From a virus (Duplodnaviria; Heunggongvirae; Uroviricota; Caudoviricetes): a stretch of DNA of 38,542 nucleotides. The translations under genes and the position numbers were made by a program. This document shows, piece after piece, positions 1-38,542 of this stretch (its first letter is position 1; the number at the start of each line of letters is the position of its first letter). The stretch lies in the IMG/VR virus record IMGVR_UViG_2531839531_000011. One strand, written 5' to 3'. The notes beneath the pieces are model-generated. The model saw only the letters and a list, made by a program, of their open reading frames with translations. It ran no database searches and had not been told where the DNA came from.

Positions 1-1020
1 TTAATCCCCCGTGGACACTGCGTGGACACTTACGCCACCTTTCAGCGGATTAAGGGCCACCGCATCCTGCAGGTAATCCGGTGCAAAATGTGCATATGCC
101 ATTGTTTGCTGAATGGTTGCGTGACCAAGAGTCTTCTGAAGCGCAATAATGTTTCCTCCGTTCATCACAAAATGGCTGGCGAACGTATGCCGCAGCACAT
201 GTGCAGCCTGGCCTTTTGGCAAATCGGGCTTAACTCTTTTCAGCGCCAGACAGAATTCCCGGTACTTCACCTCAAACAAGCCGCCTGTTTCTCTGGTTTT
301 GATCGCCTCACAAACTGCCTGCGAAATTGGCACCGTTCTCTTCCGACCATTTTTGGTTTCAAGAAACGTTACACGGTTATGAACTATCTGTTCACCACGA
401 AGCTTACAAGCTTCACTCCAGCGCGCCCCTGTGCTTAAACACAAAAGCGCAACACGCCAGTAGTCGCCCTCCAGTGTATCGAGCAATAGCGCTACTTCCT
501 TCTGGGACAGGAAAGCCATTTCTCGCGGGGATACATAAAGAATAGAAATCCCCCTTACCGGATGCTCTGCATCCCAGAGGCCTATTTTCTTCAGTACGGT
601 AAACATTCCGGATAACCGATTCATGTATCTGTTAGCAGATGACGGTTTCAATCCATCAGCTATCTTTTGAGAACGCCACGCGATAATTTTCAGCTTATCA
701 AGATCCACAGCCTGCATATCAGCGCCAAGCTCATTGATTATGTTGCGCAGTTGTTTTCGGTCTTCTTCCGCCTTACGCCTGTGCTGGCCGTGATACATCC
801 ACCACAACTCAAGCAAATCATTTAGCGTTCGACGATCACGGTAGCCCTGTATATATTCCCGCTTTTCAGCGTTCGCCATGATGTAGCGTTCAGTGGCCAC
901 CGCTACCGATTTTTTGTCAAATACCTTACGTACGCGCTTTCCCTTGCGTCCGTTCGGCCTGATGTCCAGCAAATAACGACCATCTTCGAGCTTCTTAATC
1001 GACATTGCGAAGCCCTCCAA
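1..1020 (-). CDS. int: Tyrosine integrase (P2 Int-like); true start may be the internal Met at MSIKKLEDGRY (~1005)
   Basis: 339-aa ORF; C-terminal catalytic-region residues (ARWSE, HVLRHTFASHF, LGHATIQQTMAYAHF) typical of phage integrases; position at prophage end next to repressor. Confidence 0.9.
   Translation of the reverse strand: MEGFAMSIKKLEDGRYLLDIRPNGRKGKRVRKVFDKKSVAVATERYIMANAEKREYIQGYRDRRTLNDLLELWWMYHGQHRRKAEEDRKQLRNIINELGADMQAVDLDKLKIIAWRSQKIADGLKPSSANRYMNRLSGMFTVLKKIGLWDAEHPVRGISILYVSPREMAFLSQKEVALLLDTLEGDYWRVALLCLSTGARWSEACKLRGEQIVHNRVTFLETKNGRKRTVPISQAVCEAIKTRETGGLFEVKYREFCLALKRVKPDLPKGQAAHVLRHTFASHFVMNGGNIIALQKTLGHATIQQTMAYAHFAPDYLQDAVALNPLKGGVSVHAVSTGD
11..28. other. Candidate attL core: 18-bp sequence gtggacactgcgtggaca, repeated directly (17/18) at 37363..37380; lies inside the last codons of int
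   Basis: Direct repeat seen by eye at both prophage ends; not statistically tested. Confidence 0.35.
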
Positions 1021-1101
1021 TGAACCGCTCTACAATTTCTCCAGCCTCTTTCCAGCAATAATCAGACCAGACAAAAAGCAGGTCTAACCAGTTTTCTGGC
1101 C

Positions 1102-1689
1102 TCAGCGGGGTAATTTTTGTTTTGTTTCGGTTGAACTCTGATCGCCCTCCAAACTGGAGAAGCCATCAAGAGAGAGAGGCGGAGCAATCTGCCCCGTCGC
1201 AGCATTAGTTTGATTAAACATTACCCAATCCGAATACTTCCGAAAACGGGGATGATTCAAAATCAGGAGTAGCGTTTCTCCAGGCATCATTCTTCCCAAT
1301 ATTTCATAATTTTTGAGATTGTTTTGAGATACCCCTGTCATCTCTTCCATCGCTCTACGCGACAATCCCTCTGCCTCTCGAATCAGGCGGAGTTTTTCTC
1401 CAAGCTCAGATACCACTTCAGATCCATTACCAGCCAATGGCGTGGGTTCAATTTGCCCATTATCTGGAGACACTTGCCCAGTCATAAGCCAAAGCGCGTA
1501 TTTTTTGAACCTATCAACCTGTAAAACTCGCTCAACCAACTCTGCTCTAGCAGGCTGATGACCTGTTTCATATTTCTGAATAGTATTAAGTGGAATCCCT
1601 GTAATATCAGAGAATTGACGTCTGCTTAACTCTTCCGCCTCCCTCATTCTCATGAGTCTTTGCGAATAGTCTATTGACACGTTTCTCAT
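1102..1689 (-). CDS. Immunity repressor candidate with two tandem XRE-type helix-turn-helix domains (ORF extends to 1737; start at MRNVSIDY preferred)
   Basis: Duplicated motif (LSRRQFSDITGIPLNTIQKYETG and LSRRAMEEMTGVSQNNLKNYEILG); aaggag RBS before second ATG; divergent from cox-like gene. Confidence 0.7.
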   Translation of the reverse strand: MRNVSIDYSQRLMRMREAEELSRRQFSDITGIPLNTIQKYETGHQPARAELVERVLQVDRFKKYALWLMTGQVSPDNGQIEPTPLAGNGSEVVSELGEKLRLIREAEGLSRRAMEEMTGVSQNNLKNYEILGRMMPGETLLLILNHPRFRKYSDWVMFNQTNAATGQIAPPLSLDGFSSLEGDQSSTETKQKLPR

Positions 1690-1739
1690 GCGAGAAATAT
1701 ACTCCTTTCTAAATTGAGAAATGCAAGAACAACTCAAAT

Positions 1740-1779
1740 AGCCAAAATAAGCCTATATAAGCCATTTTTAGCCATTTGG
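1740..1779. promoter_or_regulatory. Four exactly tandem 10-bp repeats (AGCCAAAATA AGCCTATATA AGCCATTTTT AGCCATTTGG) in the divergent repressor/cox switch region; candidate operator
   Basis: Read directly; 10-bp helical phasing; P2-type C and Cox proteins are known to bind direct repeats. Confidence 0.5.
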
Positions 1780-1801
1780 ACGAATTAAGGAGATTACCAC
1801 A

Positions 1802-2089
1802 ATGAGCGAATCAGAGCTTGAGGGGTTCATTCAGGTAGCACCATATCCACTTGAAGCGGTGCCATATCAACTATTTGCCAAGATGATTGGCCGCAAAGAA
1901 TCAACCGTCAGAACCATGATTGACGCAGCAAAGTTACCAACGATTGACTTTGTAAAACCGGGTTCAGCAAAGACGCGAGCATCAGAAAACTGGGTATATC
2001 TGCCAGCATTTAACGCAGGTATGCGCAAAGCATTTTTTGATCAGCCGAAAGAGCGCCGCGACGCATGGTTGCTCTGGCTGGGTCTTTGA
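1802..2089 (+). CDS. cox: Cox/Apl-like excisionase and switch regulator
   Basis: 95 aa; AGGAG RBS; motifs WVYLPAFN and WLLWLGL resemble recalled P2 Cox; divergent from repressor. Confidence 0.65.
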   Translation: MSESELEGFIQVAPYPLEAVPYQLFAKMIGRKESTVRTMIDAAKLPTIDFVKPGSAKTRASENWVYLPAFNAGMRKAFFDQPKERRDAWLLWLGL

Positions 2090-2100
2090 CGAGGATTTTT

Positions 2101-2442
2101 ATGAGACAACAACGTAATTCACGCTTTCGCAATGGCGCAGAACGCCATGCTAACCGTTTCGCTACCAGCGCATCACGTAGCAGCTCTCGCTACAGCCTGA
2201 GCGAAACACACGCAACGCCGGATGGCTACCCCGTAAAACAAATCGGCGAACACGCCTGGCTGATTGAGAAAGCTGGAATCGTGGTCCACAAATGCCCGCG
2301 TAATCCGTTTACCGGAAGCCGCATTTTTGCCCTGAGCAGCGGCGACAATCAGTTCGGACAGGATTTCACATTATACGAAGCACTACGCACGGTTGATCGT
2401 CTGCTTCGCGGGCAAAGTTTTATTAAACAGGCTGATTTATAA
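2101..2442 (+). CDS. Hypothetical early protein (113 aa, basic N-terminus)
   Basis: ORF in early operon, start MRQQRNSRF; no recognisable domain. Confidence 0.55.
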   Translation: MRQQRNSRFRNGAERHANRFATSASRSSSRYSLSETHATPDGYPVKQIGEHAWLIEKAGIVVHKCPRNPFTGSRIFALSSGDNQFGQDFTLYEALRTVDRLLRGQSFIKQADL

Positions 2443-5130: not shown

Positions 5131-5307
5131 GTATGCCGTTCTCACAAAAAAACCGCTTGCCATGCCGCAATCAGCCAGGTTACATTTCCGCTGCACCTCA
5201 TAAAACGGGTGCCGGGATTCTCAACCTGCTGACAAACGAAGCGCACAACCGCGCCAGCGGTTTTTTTGTGCGTACTGTATTGCCACGTCTTTTTCGCATC
5301 AGAATTA

Positions 5308-5386
5308 TGGTGGGGCGTACGGGGCCGACTTCGGTCGGGCCGGTTTCTTCGTTTGCCGGTGTTGAGAACCCCGTACGTCTCGCCAC
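5308..5386 (+). ncRNA. Candidate structured RNA element: long-range stem (GGTGGGGCGTACGGGG pairing with CCCCGTACGTCTCGCCACC) enclosing a UUCG-tetraloop hairpin
   Basis: Complementarity seen by eye in a ~320-bp region with no credible ORF; strand and function unknown. Confidence 0.25.
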
Positions 5387-5449
5387 CCCGAGATTCTCAA
5401 CTCTGGTTGGTGAGTATCCAAAAACTCACAAACGAAGAGGCCAAACACC

Positions 5450-5680
5450 ATGGCAAACCGCAAACAGCACCGCACTATCGCGGAGCGTCGTCACATCCAG
5501 ACTGAAATCGATCGCAGACTCACCCGCGCTGCACACATCGCCTTTATCATGCAATCCAACACATTGCACAGACTCAACAGCACTATTTCAGCCGACTACT
5601 GCGCCGCTGTATTCAGCTATCTGGCGGAAGACCTCCTGTCTCTTCAGGATCTCATCCAGCAGCAAAACAAACTCCATTAA
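5450..5680 (+). CDS. Hypothetical protein (76 aa) upstream of replication genes
   Basis: GAAGAGG RBS before ATG; MANRKQHRTIAERRH basic N-terminus. Confidence 0.5.
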   Translation: MANRKQHRTIAERRHIQTEIDRRLTRAAHIAFIMQSNTLHRLNSTISADYCAAVFSYLAEDLLSLQDLIQQQNKLH

Positions 5681-10864: not shown

Positions 10865-11272
10865 TTAAATATAATCTTCTTCGTAGTCGCTGATTAATTC
10901 ATTGCCATAATCAGACAGCAATTTCAAAGCAAAGGTAACTTCCTCAAGGGTAGCTATCCCCATTGCTGAAAACACCGTTAATTTAACCAGCAGCAGGGAG
11001 TTTGAAAGTTCGGAAGAGTTCATCATTAAAAATATTGATGCAGCCTGAAAAGCTGTGCGTTTATTCCCATCATGAAAGGCATGAGCCTTGGCTATACCAA
11101 TCAAATACATAGCAGCCAGAGCATGAATATCATCAACCCCTTCATAGTAGTGTAGTGTCCTGACGCGATTTAAAGCACCTTCAAGTAGCCCGTCATTGGC
11201 ATTTCCGCTCTGGGGTAAAGTTTCAGCATGGATACGTTCTACTTGTTCTTTTGACAAAAACACTATGTCCAT
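10865..11272 (-). CDS. doc: Doc (death-on-curing) Fic-family toxin
   Basis: 135 aa; Fic-type motif HAFHDGNKRTA; start overlaps antitoxin stop (TGATG). Confidence 0.85.
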   Translation of the reverse strand: MDIVFLSKEQVERIHAETLPQSGNANDGLLEGALNRVRTLHYYEGVDDIHALAAMYLIGIAKAHAFHDGNKRTAFQAASIFLMMNSSELSNSLLLVKLTVFSAMGIATLEEVTFALKLLSDYGNELISDYEEDYI

Positions 11273-11628
11273 CAGTTATCCTCAAGCTTTTTAATGATAT
11301 CCGCATGTTTTTCTCTTGTACGCTTCATTGCATCTTCAAAAGACAATCCTTTTTTTCTCTGTGCGACAAGAGCTGGATGACGTTTTTCCAGATCTCTCAC
11401 TGCATTTATTAAGAGTGGTTGCTTCATTTTGTTTATTTGATCCCGCAGTTTTTTGGTTTTGCCAAGGACAGCCCGTATTTCAGGACTAAGATCAGAACCA
11501 GCAAGAACAACATCCTTCCCTCCCTGCGCCGTGATAACGACACTGCCACCGGAAGAAAGGTAATCCAGAATTTCACTCAGGTTCTCACGAAATTCATCAT
11601 CAGTTACAGTTTTCATATTCATTTCCAT
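11272..11628 (-). CDS. phd: Phd/YefM-like antitoxin candidate (start may be a downstream Met)
   Basis: Small acidic-C-terminus protein immediately upstream of and coupled to doc. Confidence 0.6.
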   Translation of the reverse strand: MEMNMKTVTDDEFRENLSEILDYLSSGGSVVITAQGGKDVVLAGSDLSPEIRAVLGKTKKLRDQINKMKQPLLINAVRDLEKRHPALVAQRKKGLSFEDAMKRTREKHADIIKKLEDN

Positions 11629-11639
11629 TATGCACGCCC

Positions 11640-11740
11640 ATAACGTAAGTATAACGGCTTGTTGGGCAGTAATAACACCGCCATATTTTCATTTTATACA
11701 CCGCACAATAGTGCACAAATTTGCACAATTTTTTTGAACA
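11640..11740 (-). promoter_or_regulatory. Candidate phd-doc promoter/operator with repeated TGCACAA motifs
   Basis: gtgcacaaatttgcacaattttttt directly upstream of the antitoxin start. Confidence 0.3.
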
Positions 11741-35278: not shown

Positions 35279-35539
35279 ATGTTCCGTTGTCCGCTTTGTG
35301 GCGCATCTGCCCGTATCCGCACCAGTCGTCCGGAAAATGATTCAAACACCGTGCGGCAAAAGTATTACCAGTGTAACAACCTGGAATGCGGCGTATGCTT
35401 CTCAACACTGGAAGCCTTCCATAAATTCACATCGAAACACGCCTCCGGCGTTCACTCATCAGAAGGTATTCCGTGGCATGAGCTGCCAGCTTCACACAGG
35501 GGAAACAATCAGATGAGTTTGCCTTTACCTCAGAATTAA
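35279..35539 (+). CDS. ogr: Ogr/Delta-family zinc-finger late transcription activator
   Basis: MFRCPLCGASARIRTSR...YYQCNNLECGVCF matches the recalled Ogr Cys4 pattern. Confidence 0.85.
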   Translation: MFRCPLCGASARIRTSRPENDSNTVRQKYYQCNNLECGVCFSTLEAFHKFTSKHASGVHSSEGIPWHELPASHRGNNQMSLPLPQN

Positions 35540-35627
35540 CAGGCAGAATTGCCGGAGTAACAAAAAAGCGATAGATTACGTGCGGGTGCCTTTCGGCTGA
35601 TGGTCGGAGGGAATACCCGAAGGCCAG

Positions 35628-35813
35628 ATGTGGAAAGGCCCCGAGTCAACTTTAACGTTAACCCGAGGCCCTAACCATCTACCCTTAGCAAGTGATAGGT
35701 TAGCGCCTCCCCGAAAAAGGAGCAAGCGCTATGTCGCAAAAATCGCTTACGGCCATCACGTTCTGCGTGACGGCAATCCTCATCATCTGGATGCTGCACG
35801 GTTCGCTGTGTGA
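35628..35813 (+). CDS. Mok-like overlapping reading frame (modulator of hok translation)
   Basis: 61-aa ORF overlapping the hok-like start in another frame, as in hok/mok/sok loci. Confidence 0.4.
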   Translation: MWKGPESTLTLTRGPNHLPLASDRLAPPRKRSKRYVAKIAYGHHVLRDGNPHHLDAARFAV

Positions 35814-35871
35814 AATACGGATGAGCTTCTGGGGAGCGGAGTTTGCGGCGTTCTTACAGTGTAAGCAGTAA
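35731..35871 (+). CDS. Hok/Gef-family type I toxin (46 aa)
   Basis: MSQKSLTAITFCVTAILIIWMLHGSLCEIRMSFWGAEFAAFLQCKQ; hydrophobic helix plus SLCEIR signature; below ORF-track size cut-off. Confidence 0.7.
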   Translation: MSQKSLTAITFCVTAILIIWMLHGSLCEIRMSFWGAEFAAFLQCKQ

Positions 35872-35880
35872 GGAAACCGC

Positions 35881-35902
35881 GACGGGGGAGTAATCCCCCG
35901 TC
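35881..35902 (+). terminator. Hairpin GACGGGGGA-gtaa-TCCCCCGTC at the 3' end of the hok-like transcript
   Basis: 9-bp perfect stem read directly. Confidence 0.4.
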
Positions 35903-36048
35903 AATCAGTTGCCAGGATAAGGTCGATAAGGCATCCTGTCTCACTCTATACCAGCTAATCAATTGACACATATCAATAAAAAGCCTGATAAAATCAAAAT
36001 GTTTTGTTACAAATGTCAGCTAGTAGAGGGCCAAAGGAGGCAGATTAT

Positions 36049-36381
36049 ATGGCATTAATCAAATGTCCTGAATGCCAGAAAGAGGTGATCGATTCAGTAT
36101 TGTCTTGCCCTGCTTGTGGCAAACAACTGAAAAATCTTAAACGCTCATTTTTTGGAGAACTCATTAAGTGTTTTTTTATATTATTTAATGTTTTTATAAT
36201 CTACACGATTTGTATTGGGCTAAGAGAGGTGGGTGAAATAATAAACAACGCCACATCCGATGCCGAAAAAGCCGGTACAGTTATTGGTACGGGCTTAGGT
36301 TTAATTGCTATTGGAGGCTTATGGGTTATTGGCAATATCATTATCGGAAATTTAGTATTTCTTACTAAACCAAAGGGATAA
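36049..36381 (+). CDS. Zinc-ribbon (CPEC...CPAC) membrane protein, AT-rich cargo gene
   Basis: AGGAGG RBS before MALIKCPECQ; N-terminal Cys4 ribbon followed by two or three hydrophobic helices. Confidence 0.55.
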   Translation: MALIKCPECQKEVIDSVLSCPACGKQLKNLKRSFFGELIKCFFILFNVFIIYTICIGLREVGEIINNATSDAEKAGTVIGTGLGLIAIGGLWVIGNIIIGNLVFLTKPKG

Positions 36382-36385
36382 CAAA

Positions 36386-37279
36386 ATGAAAAATGTGATT
36401 ATTTCTATAGGCGCATCATTTATATCAATTAGTGTGCTACCTGCTCACGCAGCAACTGAGCATAATAACTTTAAGTCATCACTCCAGTGCCGAGCAATAG
36501 AAAATAATAAAGAAAGACTTTCTTGTTATGATAAGTCAATACAACCGACTCGAACGACAGTTGCTGAAAAATTCGAAAGCAGAGATCAATGCCCTGATGA
36601 GAAAGATGATGACAGACGTTTATCTTGTTATGACCGTTTTTTTTCTCCAACATTTACTCCGCCTGTAAGCTCAAAATCTAAAGTGAAACAGCTAGTAACA
36701 ACAGAGACTCAGCAACCAAATCTTTCTGAGATATCTAAATGTCGAGCAGAAAACGATAAAGAAACTAGAGTAAACTGCTACGATAAACTATTTCCACAGG
36801 AAAAAGCTACGCAATCTAAATCAAAATTAGAGAAAGCCACAGACTCAGGAAAATGGCACACATCCATTACTACATCGCCAATTGATGATTCGAAAAATGT
36901 AATTTTATCGTTAGAAAGTGATGATTATATAAGAACTCCATTTGGAGAAGCGGTTACCCCTACTCTGTTTATAGCTTGCCGAGAAAAGAAAACCGAAGTA
37001 TTTCTTAATTGGGATGTATATTTAGGCCTTGAACAAACCAGCATGCTGTATCGCCTTGATAAACAGAAAGCAGTTGAGCGAAACTGGCTAGTATCTACAG
37101 ATACAAAGGCTGTTTTTTATAAAGGCAATGACATTAACTTCATCAGAAAACTAGCCAACTCAAACAAAATGTATGCAAGAATAACCCCTTATAATGAAAG
37201 CCCTGTAAGTGCAACTTTCAATTTAAACGGCCTGTCAACCACGCTAAAACCGCTTCAAGAAGCCTGTAACTGGAAATAG
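36386..37279 (+). CDS. Secreted protein with three Cys-containing repeats (C-x10-R-L/V-S/N-CYDK/R) and a C-terminal domain, AT-rich cargo gene
   Basis: 297 aa; signal peptide ...VLPAHAAT; repeats at RLSCYDK, RLSCYDR, RVNCYDK. Confidence 0.6.
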   Translation: MKNVIISIGASFISISVLPAHAATEHNNFKSSLQCRAIENNKERLSCYDKSIQPTRTTVAEKFESRDQCPDEKDDDRRLSCYDRFFSPTFTPPVSSKSKVKQLVTTETQQPNLSEISKCRAENDKETRVNCYDKLFPQEKATQSKSKLEKATDSGKWHTSITTSPIDDSKNVILSLESDDYIRTPFGEAVTPTLFIACREKKTEVFLNWDVYLGLEQTSMLYRLDKQKAVERNWLVSTDTKAVFYKGNDINFIRKLANSNKMYARITPYNESPVSATFNLNGLSTTLKPLQEACNWK

Positions 37280-37309
37280 TATAAATCATGCGGCTAAGCC
37301 ACAATCACA

Positions 37310-37347
37310 GATAACACAAAGCCCGTGAAAACGGGCTTTGTGTTATC
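37310..37347. terminator. Strong bidirectional terminator: 16-bp perfect inverted repeat GATAACACAAAGCCCG-tgaaaa-CGGGCTTTGTGTTATC
   Basis: Read directly, just after the cargo genes. Confidence 0.6.
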
Positions 37348-37362
37348 TATAACTCGAAAATG

Positions 37363-37380
37363 TGGTCACTGCGTGGACAT
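37363..37380. other. Candidate attR core (gtggtcactgcgtggaca), direct repeat of 11..28
   Basis: 17/18 match to the sequence at the int 3' end; lies between cargo genes and host flk. Confidence 0.35.
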
Positions 37381-37546
37381 GCGCCGATACAAATCCTTTT
37401 ATATCAAAAAGTTAAATCAACATCTTTTTCATCAACAAGGATTTTCACGTTTGTGTTACCTGTATGAGACGAGAGTTAACCGGACAAGTGTGCCATAATC
37501 TCGCGGCCAGGCATACTTGCGAAGATTTCAGGTATAAGGATACGTA

Positions 37547-38542
37547 ATGATACAACCTATTTCCGGCCCTCCTCCTGGGCAACCACCAGGTCAGGGAGAT
37601 AACCTGCCGTCTGGCGCGGGCAATCAGCCTTTATCCAGTCAGCAACGTACTTCGCTGGAAAGCTTAATGACGAAAGTGACCTCACTGACGCAACAGCAAA
37701 GAGCAGAACTGTGGGCGGGTATCAGGCACGATATTGGTCTGTCGGGAGATTCACCGCTGCTTTCGCGTCACTTCCCTGCCGCTGAGCATAATCTGGCGCA
37801 ACGTCTGCTGGCCGCGCAAAAAAGCCATTCTGCCCGCCAGCTTTTAGCGCAATTAGGGGAGTATTTACGTCTGGGGAATAATCGTCAGGCGGTCACGGAT
37901 TATATCCGTCATAACTTTGGTCAGACGCCGCTGAATCAGCTCTCACCGGAGCAATTAAAAACCATTCTCACCCTGTTGCAGGAAGGGAAGATGGTTATTC
38001 CGCAACCACAGCAGCGCGAGGCGACCGACCGTCCTTTATTACCGGCGGAGCACAATGCGCTAAAACAGCTGGTGACCAAACTTGCGGCGGCAACGGGGGA
38101 ACCCAGCAAACAGATCTGGCAATCGATGCTGGAACTTTCCGGGGTGAAAGATGGCGAGTTAATTCCAGCGAAACTGTTTAACCATCTGGTGACCTGGCTA
38201 CAGGCGCGTCAGACGCTAAGCCAGCAAAATACGCCGACGCTGGAATCACTACAGATGACGCTAAAACAACCTTTAGATGCCAGTGAACTGGCGGCGTTAT
38301 CGGCATATATCCAGCAAAAATATGATCTTTCTGCGCAATCATCGCTTTCTTCTGCCCAGGCCGAGGATATTCTTAATCAGCTTTATCAACGGCGGGTTAA
38401 AGGGATTGATCCGCGTGTTATGCAACCGCTGCTTAATCCTTTTCCACCGATGATGGACACGTTGCAAAATATGGCAACGCGTCCCGCGCTGTGGATACTG
38501 TTAGTCGCGATTATCCTGATGCTGGTCTGGCTGGTTCGTTAA
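37547..38542 (+). CDS. flk: Host flagellar regulator Flk (C-terminally membrane-anchored)
   Basis: 331 aa; N-terminus MIQPISGPPPGQPPGQGDNLPSG and C-terminal hydrophobic anchor match my recollection of E. coli Flk. Confidence 0.75.
   Translation: MIQPISGPPPGQPPGQGDNLPSGAGNQPLSSQQRTSLESLMTKVTSLTQQQRAELWAGIRHDIGLSGDSPLLSRHFPAAEHNLAQRLLAAQKSHSARQLLAQLGEYLRLGNNRQAVTDYIRHNFGQTPLNQLSPEQLKTILTLLQEGKMVIPQPQQREATDRPLLPAEHNALKQLVTKLAAATGEPSKQIWQSMLELSGVKDGELIPAKLFNHLVTWLQARQTLSQQNTPTLESLQMTLKQPLDASELAALSAYIQQKYDLSAQSSLSSAQAEDILNQLYQRRVKGIDPRVMQPLLNPFPPMMDTLQNMATRPALWILLVAIILMLVWLVR

What the first reader, a model, noticed from the sequence alone, without database searches (positions are those of the whole stretch)
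1690..1801. Immunity switch region with four phased 10-bp AGCCA repeats
The divergent repressor/cox intergenic region holds four exactly tandem 10-bp units beginning AGCCA, one containing TATATA. P2-type C and Cox proteins bind direct rather than inverted repeats, so these are strong operator candidates. The repressor here is unusual in having two tandem HTH domains.
Basis: partly seen in the sequence, partly recalled or inferred. Interest (0 to 1): 0.35.

Follow-up and report, generated by a model that had tools for sequence, protein, structure and literature searches.

The report
Cox-binding repeats in a P2-type switch
The four evenly spaced AGCC repeats are real and are most likely the docking sites for the prophage's Cox protein at an ordinary P2-type lysis/lysogeny switch, not the repressor's operators; the unusual part is that the repressor is a fusion of two different immunity repressors.

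Summary
AGCC recurs four times at exactly 10 bp (1740, 1750, 1760, 1770) in the 112-bp spacer between a P2-C-type repressor gene and cox. This is the only such array in the window and is far beyond chance. One unit starts AGCCT, not AGCCA.

In 50 related loci the same Cox (74-100% identical) sits beside three different repressor types. Units 2-4 stay conserved in all of them. A different pair of repeats, flanking the -10 of a strong rightward promoter, changes with the repressor type. In this window that pair is TTTCT-N6-AGAAA at 1682-1697 and 1706-1721. Those are the likely repressor operators.

The AGCC array matches the footprinted P2 cox-boxes in position, orientation, period and approximate sequence. 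It is therefore best read as a Cox-box array over the leftward repressor promoter: an ordinary new member of a known kind.

The more notable feature is the 195-aa repressor. It fuses a Chuche-type module to a Shae_phiSM-type module. Only the first module has operators in this prophage. The fusion recurs in hundreds of E. coli contigs and with other module pairs. I found no description of it.

The parts
1..1020 (-). Tyrosine integrase of the P2 type. Only part of this ORF is the real gene: relatives annotate a 1005-nt integrase.
   Evidence: Pfam Int_N 5.7e-23 and Phage_integrase 2e-22. Annotated integrase in Shae_phiSM, Chuche, P88_4B11 and E. coli SC418.
11..30 (+). Two direct GTGGACACT repeats, likely P'-arm integrase binding sites of attP/attL.
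   Evidence: Sequence. It matches the annotated P2 P'-arm Int site ctgtggacactgtgtggacact and the published arm consensus tgTGGaCa (PMC3448106).
1102..1689 (-). 195-aa immunity repressor made of two P2-C-type HTH modules joined by a disordered linker.
   Evidence: Pfam HTH_31 and HTH_3 with two stretches each. PDB 2XCJ/2L49 'C protein' at E=2.4e-18 for residues 8-87. AlphaFold2: two confident 5-helix domains; linker 86-94 and tail 173-195 disordered; pTM 0.44.
1432..1689 (-). N-terminal module (aa 1-86), immunity type 'A' as in phage Chuche. This module matches the operators present.
   Evidence: 77% identical to the 107-aa single-module repressor P0027. Only 36% identical to the second module. 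In 10 of 10 loci with an A-type first module the operators are A-type.
1102..1419 (-). C-terminal module (aa 91-195), immunity type 'B' as in Citrobacter phage Shae_phiSM. It has no cognate operator in this prophage.
   Evidence: 89% identical to the Shae_phiSM C protein. No B-type operator motif anywhere in the window.
1674..1703 (+). Candidate early promoter Pe: TTGACA, 18 nt, TATACT. Its -35 lies inside the first codons of the repressor gene, as in P2.
   Evidence: 11 of 12 consensus match, the only promoter-like site found in 1000-2200. Same layout as the annotated P2 Pe. Conserved in other A-type loci.
1682..1697 (.). Candidate repressor operator O1, TTTCTCATGCGAGAAA, in the Pe spacer and over the repressor start codon.
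   Evidence: Direct repeat D1 and inverted repeat I2. TTTCT-N6-AGAAA occurs only twice in the 38.5 kb, even with one mismatch. It tracks the A-type module.
1706..1721 (.). Candidate repressor operator O2, TTTCTAAATTGAGAAA, just downstream of the Pe -10 and 24 bp centre-to-centre from O1.
   Evidence: The geometry parallels P2 O1/O2, which flank the Pe -10 at 22 bp (PMC1904263).
1740..1779 (+). Four 10-bp phased units with an AGCC core: the candidate Cox-box array. Units 2-4 (1750-1779) are conserved across immunity types. Unit 1 lies at the mosaic boundary.
   Evidence: for existence and significance. for conservation with Cox regardless of repressor type. for correspondence to the P2 cox-boxes.
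1754..1783 (-). Weak candidate repressor promoter Pc: -35 TCGTCC at 1783..1778, 18 nt, -10 TATATA at 1759..1754. Placed by positional homology with P2 Pc.
   Evidence: Only a 7 of 12 match. The P2 Pc -10 TATAAT sits in the equivalent cox-box unit. Inferred, not shown.
1787..1792 (+). Shine-Dalgarno AAGGAG of cox.
   Evidence: Sequence; 9 nt before the ATG at 1802.
1802..2089 (+). cox, encoding the Cox-type excisionase and Pc repressor (95 aa).
   Evidence: Pfam Phage_Cox 3.4e-23. PHROG 272 'Cox-like excisionase and repressor' 3.6e-38. 58% identical to P2 Cox.

Best explanation
The spacer 1690-1801 is a P2-type lysis/lysogeny switch with two separate sets of protein-binding repeats.

(1) Cox sites. 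The four 10-bp phased AGCC units (1740-1779) are this phage's cox-boxes. Cox monomers would bind one box per helical turn, polymerise and wrap the DNA. That covers the leftward repressor promoter Pc, whose -10 would be the TATATA in unit 2. Cox would thereby shut off the repressor-integrase operon and commit the phage to lytic growth. At high Cox levels the filament could spread towards Pe.

(2) Repressor operators. These are the two TTTCT-N6-AGAAA elements at 1682-1697 and 1706-1721. They bracket the -10 of the strong rightward promoter Pe (TTGACA-18-TATACT, 1674-1703), so bound repressor would exclude RNA polymerase from the cox operon.

(3) The repressor. It is a fusion of an A-type (Chuche-like) and a B-type (Shae_phiSM-like) C repressor. 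The A module serves the resident operators.

What is shown: the existence, phasing and uniqueness of the repeats; their conservation pattern; the homology of the proteins; and the match to the annotated P2 layout. What is inferred: actual binding, the position of Pc, and the wrapping mechanism, which is taken from P2.
For: - The AGCC x4 array is unique and non-random.
- P2, whose Cox footprints are published, has Pc and its cox-boxes at the same distance from cox. P2 also shows four 10-bp units in the same orientation. The P2 consensus is TTAAA(G/C)NC(A/C), spaced 10-11 bp, overlapping the Pc -10 and -35 (PMC3936717).
- The window's boxes (AAATAGCCA, AATAAGCCT, TATAAGCCA, TTTTAGCCA) match 4-6 of the 8 specified consensus positions. 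This count is read directly from the sequence.
- Cox is 58% identical to P2 Cox.
- In 50 loci with 74-100% identical Cox, units 2-4 are kept next to A-, B- and C-type repressors. The Pe-proximal repeat pair always matches the first HTH module: A 10/10, B 18/18, C 21/22 under a strict pattern (sequences).
- More distant Cox lineages (about 54% identity, plus L063) also carry 3-4 boxes of the form (A/G)GC(A/C) at a 10-bp period just upstream of the cox ribosome-binding site.
- Pe scores 11 of 12. TTTCT-N6-AGAAA occurs only at the two Pe-flanking positions in the 38.5 kb.
- No Rfam family covers the spacer. The cox leader has no unusual RNA fold, z = 0.36.
Against: - No binding data exist for this phage.
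- Pc is only a 7 of 12 consensus match and its start site is unknown.
- P2 sites hold at least six boxes, and bending needs more than four. Only four are clear here.
- A second Cox site is expected at attP. A position-weight-matrix (PWM) scan found only one strong box (TTAAGCCGTT, 10.1 bits), and by eye a weak inverted one sits beside it next to the P' Int sites. No phased array is seen there.
- The 50 loci are related prophages, not independent samples. Conservation of the boxes could partly reflect linkage to cox within a mosaic block.
- All Cox lineages examined share a similar GC(C/A) core, so there is no protein-to-box covariation to exploit.
Confidence: 0.78

Rival explanations
1. The AGCC repeats are operators of the immunity repressor C. 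C would bind direct repeats here to control Pc or Pe.
For: P2-family C proteins do recognise directly repeated half-sites (PMC1904263; PMC2995052). The repeats lie in the C-cox spacer.
Against: Units 2-4 are unchanged next to three repressor types whose recognition helices differ (GIPLNTIQKYE, GVSQNNLKNYE, GLPYGTVTNYE). A different repeat pair at Pe changes with the repressor in 49 of 50 loci. In P2 the C operators flank the Pe -10, not Pc.
Confidence: 0.05
2. The array is mainly a structural or promoter element: phased A/T tracts separated by GCC give intrinsically curved DNA that tunes Pc or Pe, with no sequence-specific protein reading the AGCC cores.
For: The A/T parts form a pseudo-dyad (CAAAT..AAAAT..TATATA..ATTTT..ATTTG) around 1756, reported as inverted repeat I1. 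Spacer GC is 34% against 52% for the window. The A/T parts vary between lineages while the phasing is kept.
Against: The most conserved positions are the GCC cores, not the A/T tracts. The homologous P2 units are DNase-footprinted Cox sites. Curvature and Cox wrapping are not mutually exclusive.
Confidence: 0.1
3. The conservation is passive. The block from unit 2 to cox is one mosaic module that travels with cox, and the phasing has no function of its own.
For: The homology breakpoint between immunity types falls at unit 1, and everything to the right of it, including cox, is over 90% identical in the close relatives.
Against: Lineages with only about 54-58% identical Cox, and with diverged spacer sequence, still keep 3-4 boxes at an exact 10-bp period in the same place. 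The array is statistically exceptional.
Confidence: 0.05

Closest known systems
Bacteriophage P2 cox-boxes at the Pe-Pc switch (Cox as repressor of Pc)
   Same: - The spacer length is similar: 112 bp here, 114 bp in P2.
- The gene order is the same: int, C, then cox.
- Both have four 10-bp units directly upstream of the cox ribosome-binding site, on the same strand and in the same orientation.
- Both have an A/T-rich part followed by G-N-C-A/C.
- The Pc -10 lies inside the second unit.
- The Cox proteins are 58% identical.
   Different: - The core here is AGCC(A/T), not the P2 consensus AAG/C-N-C-A/C. Matches are only 4-6 of 8 positions.
- Only four clear boxes are present, against at least six in P2.
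- Cox residues at P2 positions T25, G26 and R30 differ (E, S and T here; read from the alignment).
- The Pc -10 is TATATA rather than TATAAT.
- No clear second array is seen at attP.
Bacteriophage P2 / W-phi C repressor operators O1 and O2
   Same: Both have two directly repeated sites bracketing the Pe -10, with the Pe -35 overlapping the start of the repressor gene. Spacing is 24 bp here, 22 bp in P2 and 34 bp in W-phi.
   Different: Each site here is itself a 16-bp palindrome (TTTCT-N6-AGAAA). The related C type has ATGCC-N6-GGCAT. P2 is described as having 8-bp non-palindromic half-sites. The repressor here carries a second, heterologous HTH module.
Coliphage 186 Apl sites between pR and pL and at attP
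   Same: In both, a small winged-helix excisionase/regulator binds direct repeats one helical turn apart, between face-to-face lytic and lysogenic promoters (PMC7498355 abstract).
   Different: Apl belongs to the 186-type switch with CI and CII. This locus has the P2-type C/Cox pair and no cII.
Xuanwuvirus (P88-like Peduoviridae) prophages: Shae_phiSM, P88_4B11, Chuche, PhiR44_2
   Same: They share the integrase, Cox (96-99% identical), the cox-proximal AGCC units and the downstream early genes.
   Different: All of these deposited phages have single-module repressors of about 100-107 aa. The top hits in the phage collection each span about one module (270-321 nt), and none reaches the score expected of a two-module gene.

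Membership tests
P2-type cox-box array (Cox operator at Pc) | Direct repeats spaced one helical turn (10-11 bp) apart. | tested here: met
   AGCC at 1740, 1750, 1760 and 1770, exact 10-bp period. Found in 0 of 100 window shuffles and 3 of 20,000 spacer shuffles.
P2-type cox-box array (Cox operator at Pc) | Similarity to the consensus TTAAA(G/C)NC(A/C). | tested here: inconclusive
   The four 9-mers match 5, 4, 6 and 6 of the 8 specified positions (read against the consensus). P2's own boxes are also degenerate. The core differs (GCC against GNC).
P2-type cox-box array (Cox operator at Pc) | At least six boxes per target; more than four needed for bending. | tested here: not met
   Only four clear boxes. 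The flanking 10-bp frames (1730-1739 and 1780-1789) lack the core.
P2-type cox-box array (Cox operator at Pc) | A Cox-family protein is encoded next to the array. | tested here: met
   Pfam Phage_Cox 3.4e-23. 58% identity to P2 Cox.
P2-type cox-box array (Cox operator at Pc) | The array overlaps the -10 and -35 of the repressor promoter Pc. | tested here: inconclusive
   The position matches the annotated P2 Pc. The best minus-strand promoter here is only 7 of 12. No transcript mapping is available.
P2-type cox-box array (Cox operator at Pc) | A second set of boxes at attP, for the excisionase function. | tested here: inconclusive
   The PWM scan of the P' arm, taken from E. coli SC418 attL, found one strong box (10.1 bits). 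By eye a weak inverted box adjoins the Int arm sites. There is no phased array. attL itself lies outside the window.
P2-type cox-box array (Cox operator at Pc) | Cox protein protects the region from DNase I. | not testable with these tools
   Needs purified protein.
Immunity (C repressor) operator | The sequence changes with the repressor's specificity among heteroimmune relatives. | tested here: not met
   AGCC units 2-4 are the same next to A-, B- and C-type repressors. The repeats that do change are at Pe.
P2-type transcriptional switch (C / Cox, Pe facing Pc) | A P2-C-family repressor is first in an operon with int, divergent from a cox-led early operon. | tested here: met
   2XCJ/2L49 at E=2.4e-18. 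Gene order int, C, then cox. Same order in the annotated relatives.
P2-type transcriptional switch (C / Cox, Pe facing Pc) | The Pe -35 overlaps the start of the repressor gene, with two repeated operator sites bracketing the Pe -10. | tested here: met
   TTGACA at 1674-1679, TATACT at 1698-1703. Operators at 1682-1697 and 1706-1721. Compare the P2 annotation.
P2-type transcriptional switch (C / Cox, Pe facing Pc) | The repressor is a single-HTH protein of about 100 aa that acts as a homodimer. | tested here: not met
   The repressor is 195 aa with two heterologous modules, 36% identical to each other.

The most novel reading that the evidence does not exclude
The two-module repressor is a natural dual-specificity immunity protein.

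Its first (A-type) module would pair in trans to hold the resident A-type operators. Its second module would be free to silence the early promoter of superinfecting phages of a second immunity group. That second module is B-type here and C-type in locus L035. It is intact, keeps the recognition helix of free-living B- or C-type repressors, and has no operator in its own prophage.

The result would be one-way immunity. The lysogen excludes both A-type and B-type phages, yet the phage can still grow on B lysogens.

The evidence does not exclude this:
- No B-type operator occurs in the window.
- Operators always follow the first module.
- The modules are predicted to be independent domains on a flexible linker.
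- Fusions recur with different partners and in several lineages.
- I found no description in the searchable literature, and no two-module repressor among the top hits in deposited phage genomes.
Probability: 0.3. Interest if true: 0.6.

Novelty: new member of a known kind. Interest (0 to 1): 0.28.

Why it matters
For the repeats themselves, little changes. They extend the P2 cox-box design to the P88-like (Xuanwuvirus) prophages of E. coli and Citrobacter, and they give a clean box variant, (A/T)TAAGCC(A/T), that could help define how Cox-family proteins read DNA.

The comparative set is useful in practice. It separates the Cox sites, which are constant, from the repressor operators, which are immunity-specific. 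It also predicts operators for three immunity groups.

The fused two-module repressor would matter more. If its second module is active, it is a simple natural route to widening superinfection immunity. It would also test the published idea that P2-type repressors are under pressure to avoid cross-immunity heterodimers (PMC2995052).

Tried and rejected
- **Tandem Repeats Finder on 1500-2000:** nothing found, because the units share only the core.
- **10-bp insertion idea:** I first thought the window and Shae_phiSM had gained an extra 10-bp unit compared with P88_4B11. Rejected: the 44-nt frame upstream of cox aligns without gaps in all types, and unit 1 is simply diverged at the mosaic boundary.
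- **PWM scan for a second box array at attP:** one good box only, so inconclusive.
- **Consensus search for Pc:** only weak matches.
- **RNA explanations:** no Rfam family in the spacer and no unusual folding of the cox leader.
- **Scan of species-representative genomes with Cox:** returned only one locus. The viral contig collection was far more useful.
- **AlphaFold2 on the repressor, to see whether the two modules pack as an intramolecular pseudo-dimer:** the domains are confident but pTM is 0.44 and the linker is disordered, so there is no support for fixed packing. The alignment was shallow, 9 sequences.
- **Search for B-type or C-type operators elsewhere in the prophage:** none found.
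- **Literature search for tandem-HTH P2-type repressors:** nothing relevant found, but the library is limited.

Full report
**1. What is in the sequence.**
Window 1-2100 carries three genes:
- a P2-type integrase at 1-1020 on the minus strand;
- a 195-aa HTH repressor at 1102-1689 on the minus strand, with its ATG at 1689;
- a Cox-family gene at 1802-2089 on the plus strand.

The 112-bp spacer 1690-1801 contains AGCCAAAATA, AGCCTATATA, AGCCATTTTT and AGCCATTTGG, starting at 1740, 1750, 1760 and 1770. Three units start AGCCA and one starts AGCCT. Outside the core the units are only about half alike, which is why Tandem Repeats Finder is silent.

The phased core is not chance:
- The four-copy pattern occurs once in 38.5 kb and in 0 of 100 shuffles.
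- Only 3 of 20,000 shuffles of the spacer give four phased copies of any 4-mer.

**2. The surrounding switch.**
The only strong sigma-70 match in 1000-2200 is a rightward promoter: TTGACA (1674-1679), 18 nt, TATACT (1698-1703), scoring 11 of 12. Its -35 lies inside the first codons of the repressor gene.

Two copies of TTTCT-N6-AGAAA, at 1682-1697 and 1706-1721, bracket its -10. This motif occurs nowhere else in the window, even with one mismatch.

The annotated P2 record has the same plan:
- the Pe -35 overlaps the start of C;
- O1 and O2 flank the Pe -10;
- Pc faces Pe from about 72-97 bp away, just upstream of cox.

The AGCC array sits where P2 has Pc.

**3. Relatives separate the two sets of repeats.**
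The locus belongs to the P88-like Xuanwuvirus group of Peduoviridae: Shae_phiSM, Chuche, P88_4B11 and PhiR44_2. With 44 IMG/VR loci and one E. coli chromosome, I classified 50 loci whose Cox is 74-100% identical.

These loci carry three repressor types with different recognition helices:

| Type | Example | Repeats at Pe |
|---|---|---|
| A | Chuche | TTTCT-N6-AGAAA, twice |
| B | Shae_phiSM | ATGTGAT(C/A), twice |
| C | P88_4B11 | ATGCC-N6-GGCA(T), twice |

The repeat type at Pe follows the first HTH module in 49 of 50 loci. The exception still has one copy under a strict pattern. AGCC units 2-4 are kept in all types. Unit 1 lies on the homology breakpoint and varies (AGCC, GCCC, GGCC, CACT).

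So the immunity-specific operators are at Pe, and the AGCC units travel with Cox.

**4. Comparison with the known Cox sites.**
P2 Cox protects at least 70 bp containing cox-boxes. Their consensus is TTAAA(G/C)NC(A/C), they are spaced 10-11 bp apart, and they overlap the Pc -10 and -35. Cox forms a filament that is proposed to wrap the DNA (PMC3936717).

Read in 10-bp frames, the P2 spacer shows GGCACTAAAA, GGCATTATAA, GACATTAAAC and GCAATTCATG. These lie on the same strand, in the same orientation and at a similar distance from cox (P2 cores at -56 to -26 from the ATG, here -62 to -32). The Pc -10 falls in the second unit.

The window's Cox is 58% identical to P2 Cox. Lineages with about 54% identical Cox, and a further lineage (L063), also have 3-4 boxes of the form (A/G)GC(A/C) at an exact 10-bp period in the same place.

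I therefore read the AGCC array as this phage's cox-boxes. The mechanism is taken from P2: Cox repressing Pc by occupying one box per turn, then spreading. It is not shown here.

**5. Weak points.**
- Pc is only a 7 of 12 match: TCGTCC, 18 nt, TATATA on the minus strand.
- Only four boxes are clear, whereas P2 targets have six or more.
- attL lies just outside the window, so I used the attL of E. coli SC418. A matrix built from the boxes finds one strong box there, TTAAGCCGTT. Reading the sequence by eye adds a weak inverted one next to the Int arm sites. It finds no phased array.
- The related loci are not independent samples.
- The spacer matches no Rfam family, and the cox leader does not fold unusually. 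An RNA role is therefore unlikely.

**6. The repressor.**
The protein is in fact a chimera:
- Residues 1-86 are 77% identical to a 107-aa A-type single-module repressor.
- Residues 91-195 are 89% identical to the B-type Shae_phiSM repressor.
- The two halves are only 36% identical to each other.

Both halves resemble P2 C. AlphaFold2 gives two confident 5-helix domains, a disordered linker (86-94) and tail (173-195), and pTM 0.44. That means no fixed packing between domains, although the alignment was shallow.

The fused form is not an artefact:
- Near-identical (95-98%) 195-aa proteins are recorded on hundreds of E. coli contigs.
- 77 of 5,426 complete E. coli genomes carry at least 80% of window 1-2200.
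- RefSeq annotates the same ORF.

Other combinations exist:
- A+C in locus L035 and protein P0024;
- a different first module with a B-like second module in P0025;
- more distant two-module proteins of 162-184 aa, the three whose contigs were examined (P0025, P0032, P0033) all lying between an int gene and a divergent small early gene, which only for P0025 is a recognised Cox-family gene.

The top hits in the phage collection each span a single module. A literature search found no description.

The operators always match the first module, and no B-type site exists in the prophage. The second module therefore has no resident target. A dual-immunity role is possible but untested.

**7. Verdict.**
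The repeats are real, and they are an ordinary P2-type Cox-box array. The likely C operators are the TTTCT-N6-AGAAA pair at Pe. The fused two-module repressor is the feature most worth an experiment.

Noticed in passing
window 1102-1689 (-); also L035, L063, L065, L066: The repressor is a fusion of two heteroimmune P2-C-type modules (A+B). Other loci carry A+C and further combinations. In the 50 Xuanwuvirus-type loci classified, the operators match the first module; in L063 the match was only judged by eye, and L065 and L066 were not checked. I found no description of this in the searchable literature, and no two-module repressor among the top hits in deposited phage genomes.
   Followed up: partly
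window 5193-5267 and 5303-5390 (+), ORF 5450-5680 (+): Rfam finds isrK (62 bits) and a C4 antisense RNA (79 bits) back to back. They are followed by a 76-aa ORF with a sub-threshold Pfam 'Derepression protein family' hit (22.7 bits, cut-off 27). This may be an RNA-controlled antirepressor module, which would bear on how this switch is induced.
   Followed up: partly
window 11703-11732: Three 10-bp phased TGCACAA repeats lie just upstream, in minus-strand sense, of a Phd-like antitoxin (11272-11628) and a Doc/Fic toxin (10865-11272). They are probably the operator of this toxin-antitoxin pair.
   Followed up: partly
window 35279-37446: The right end of the prophage holds an 86-aa ORF with paired cysteines that I take to be ogr-like (35279-35539; position and sequence only, not searched against Pfam), a zinc-ribbon membrane protein (36004-36381), and a VasI-like (type VI secretion) protein (36386-37279) as cargo. 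Then come the P-arm Int sites (about 37361-37379) and the attR core TTTCATCAACAAGGATTTT (37427-37445). The host flank, which I take to be an flk-like gene, starts at 37547. In E. coli SC418 the attL side abuts pdxB.
   Followed up: partly
window 1735-1778: The A/T-rich parts between the AGCC cores form a pseudo-dyad around the TATATA (CAAAT/AAAAT ... ATTTT/ATTTG, 76% complementary), although the cores themselves are direct repeats. This may contribute intrinsic curvature at the presumed Pc.
   Followed up: no
L006 1440-1474 (attL of E. coli SC418, about 30-60 bp left of window position 1): A near-perfect 35-bp palindrome, GGGCAATACTGAATAATTGTTATTCAGTATCGCCC, lies between the att core and the P' Int arm sites. 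It could be the int terminator or a protein site. It has no counterpart in the annotated P2 attP.
   Followed up: no
L009 (IMG/VR locus): This repressor has a C-type HTH body but the B-type C-terminal tail. The conserved tail region around GQIAP...LSLDG therefore looks like a recombination joint between immunity types.
   Followed up: no
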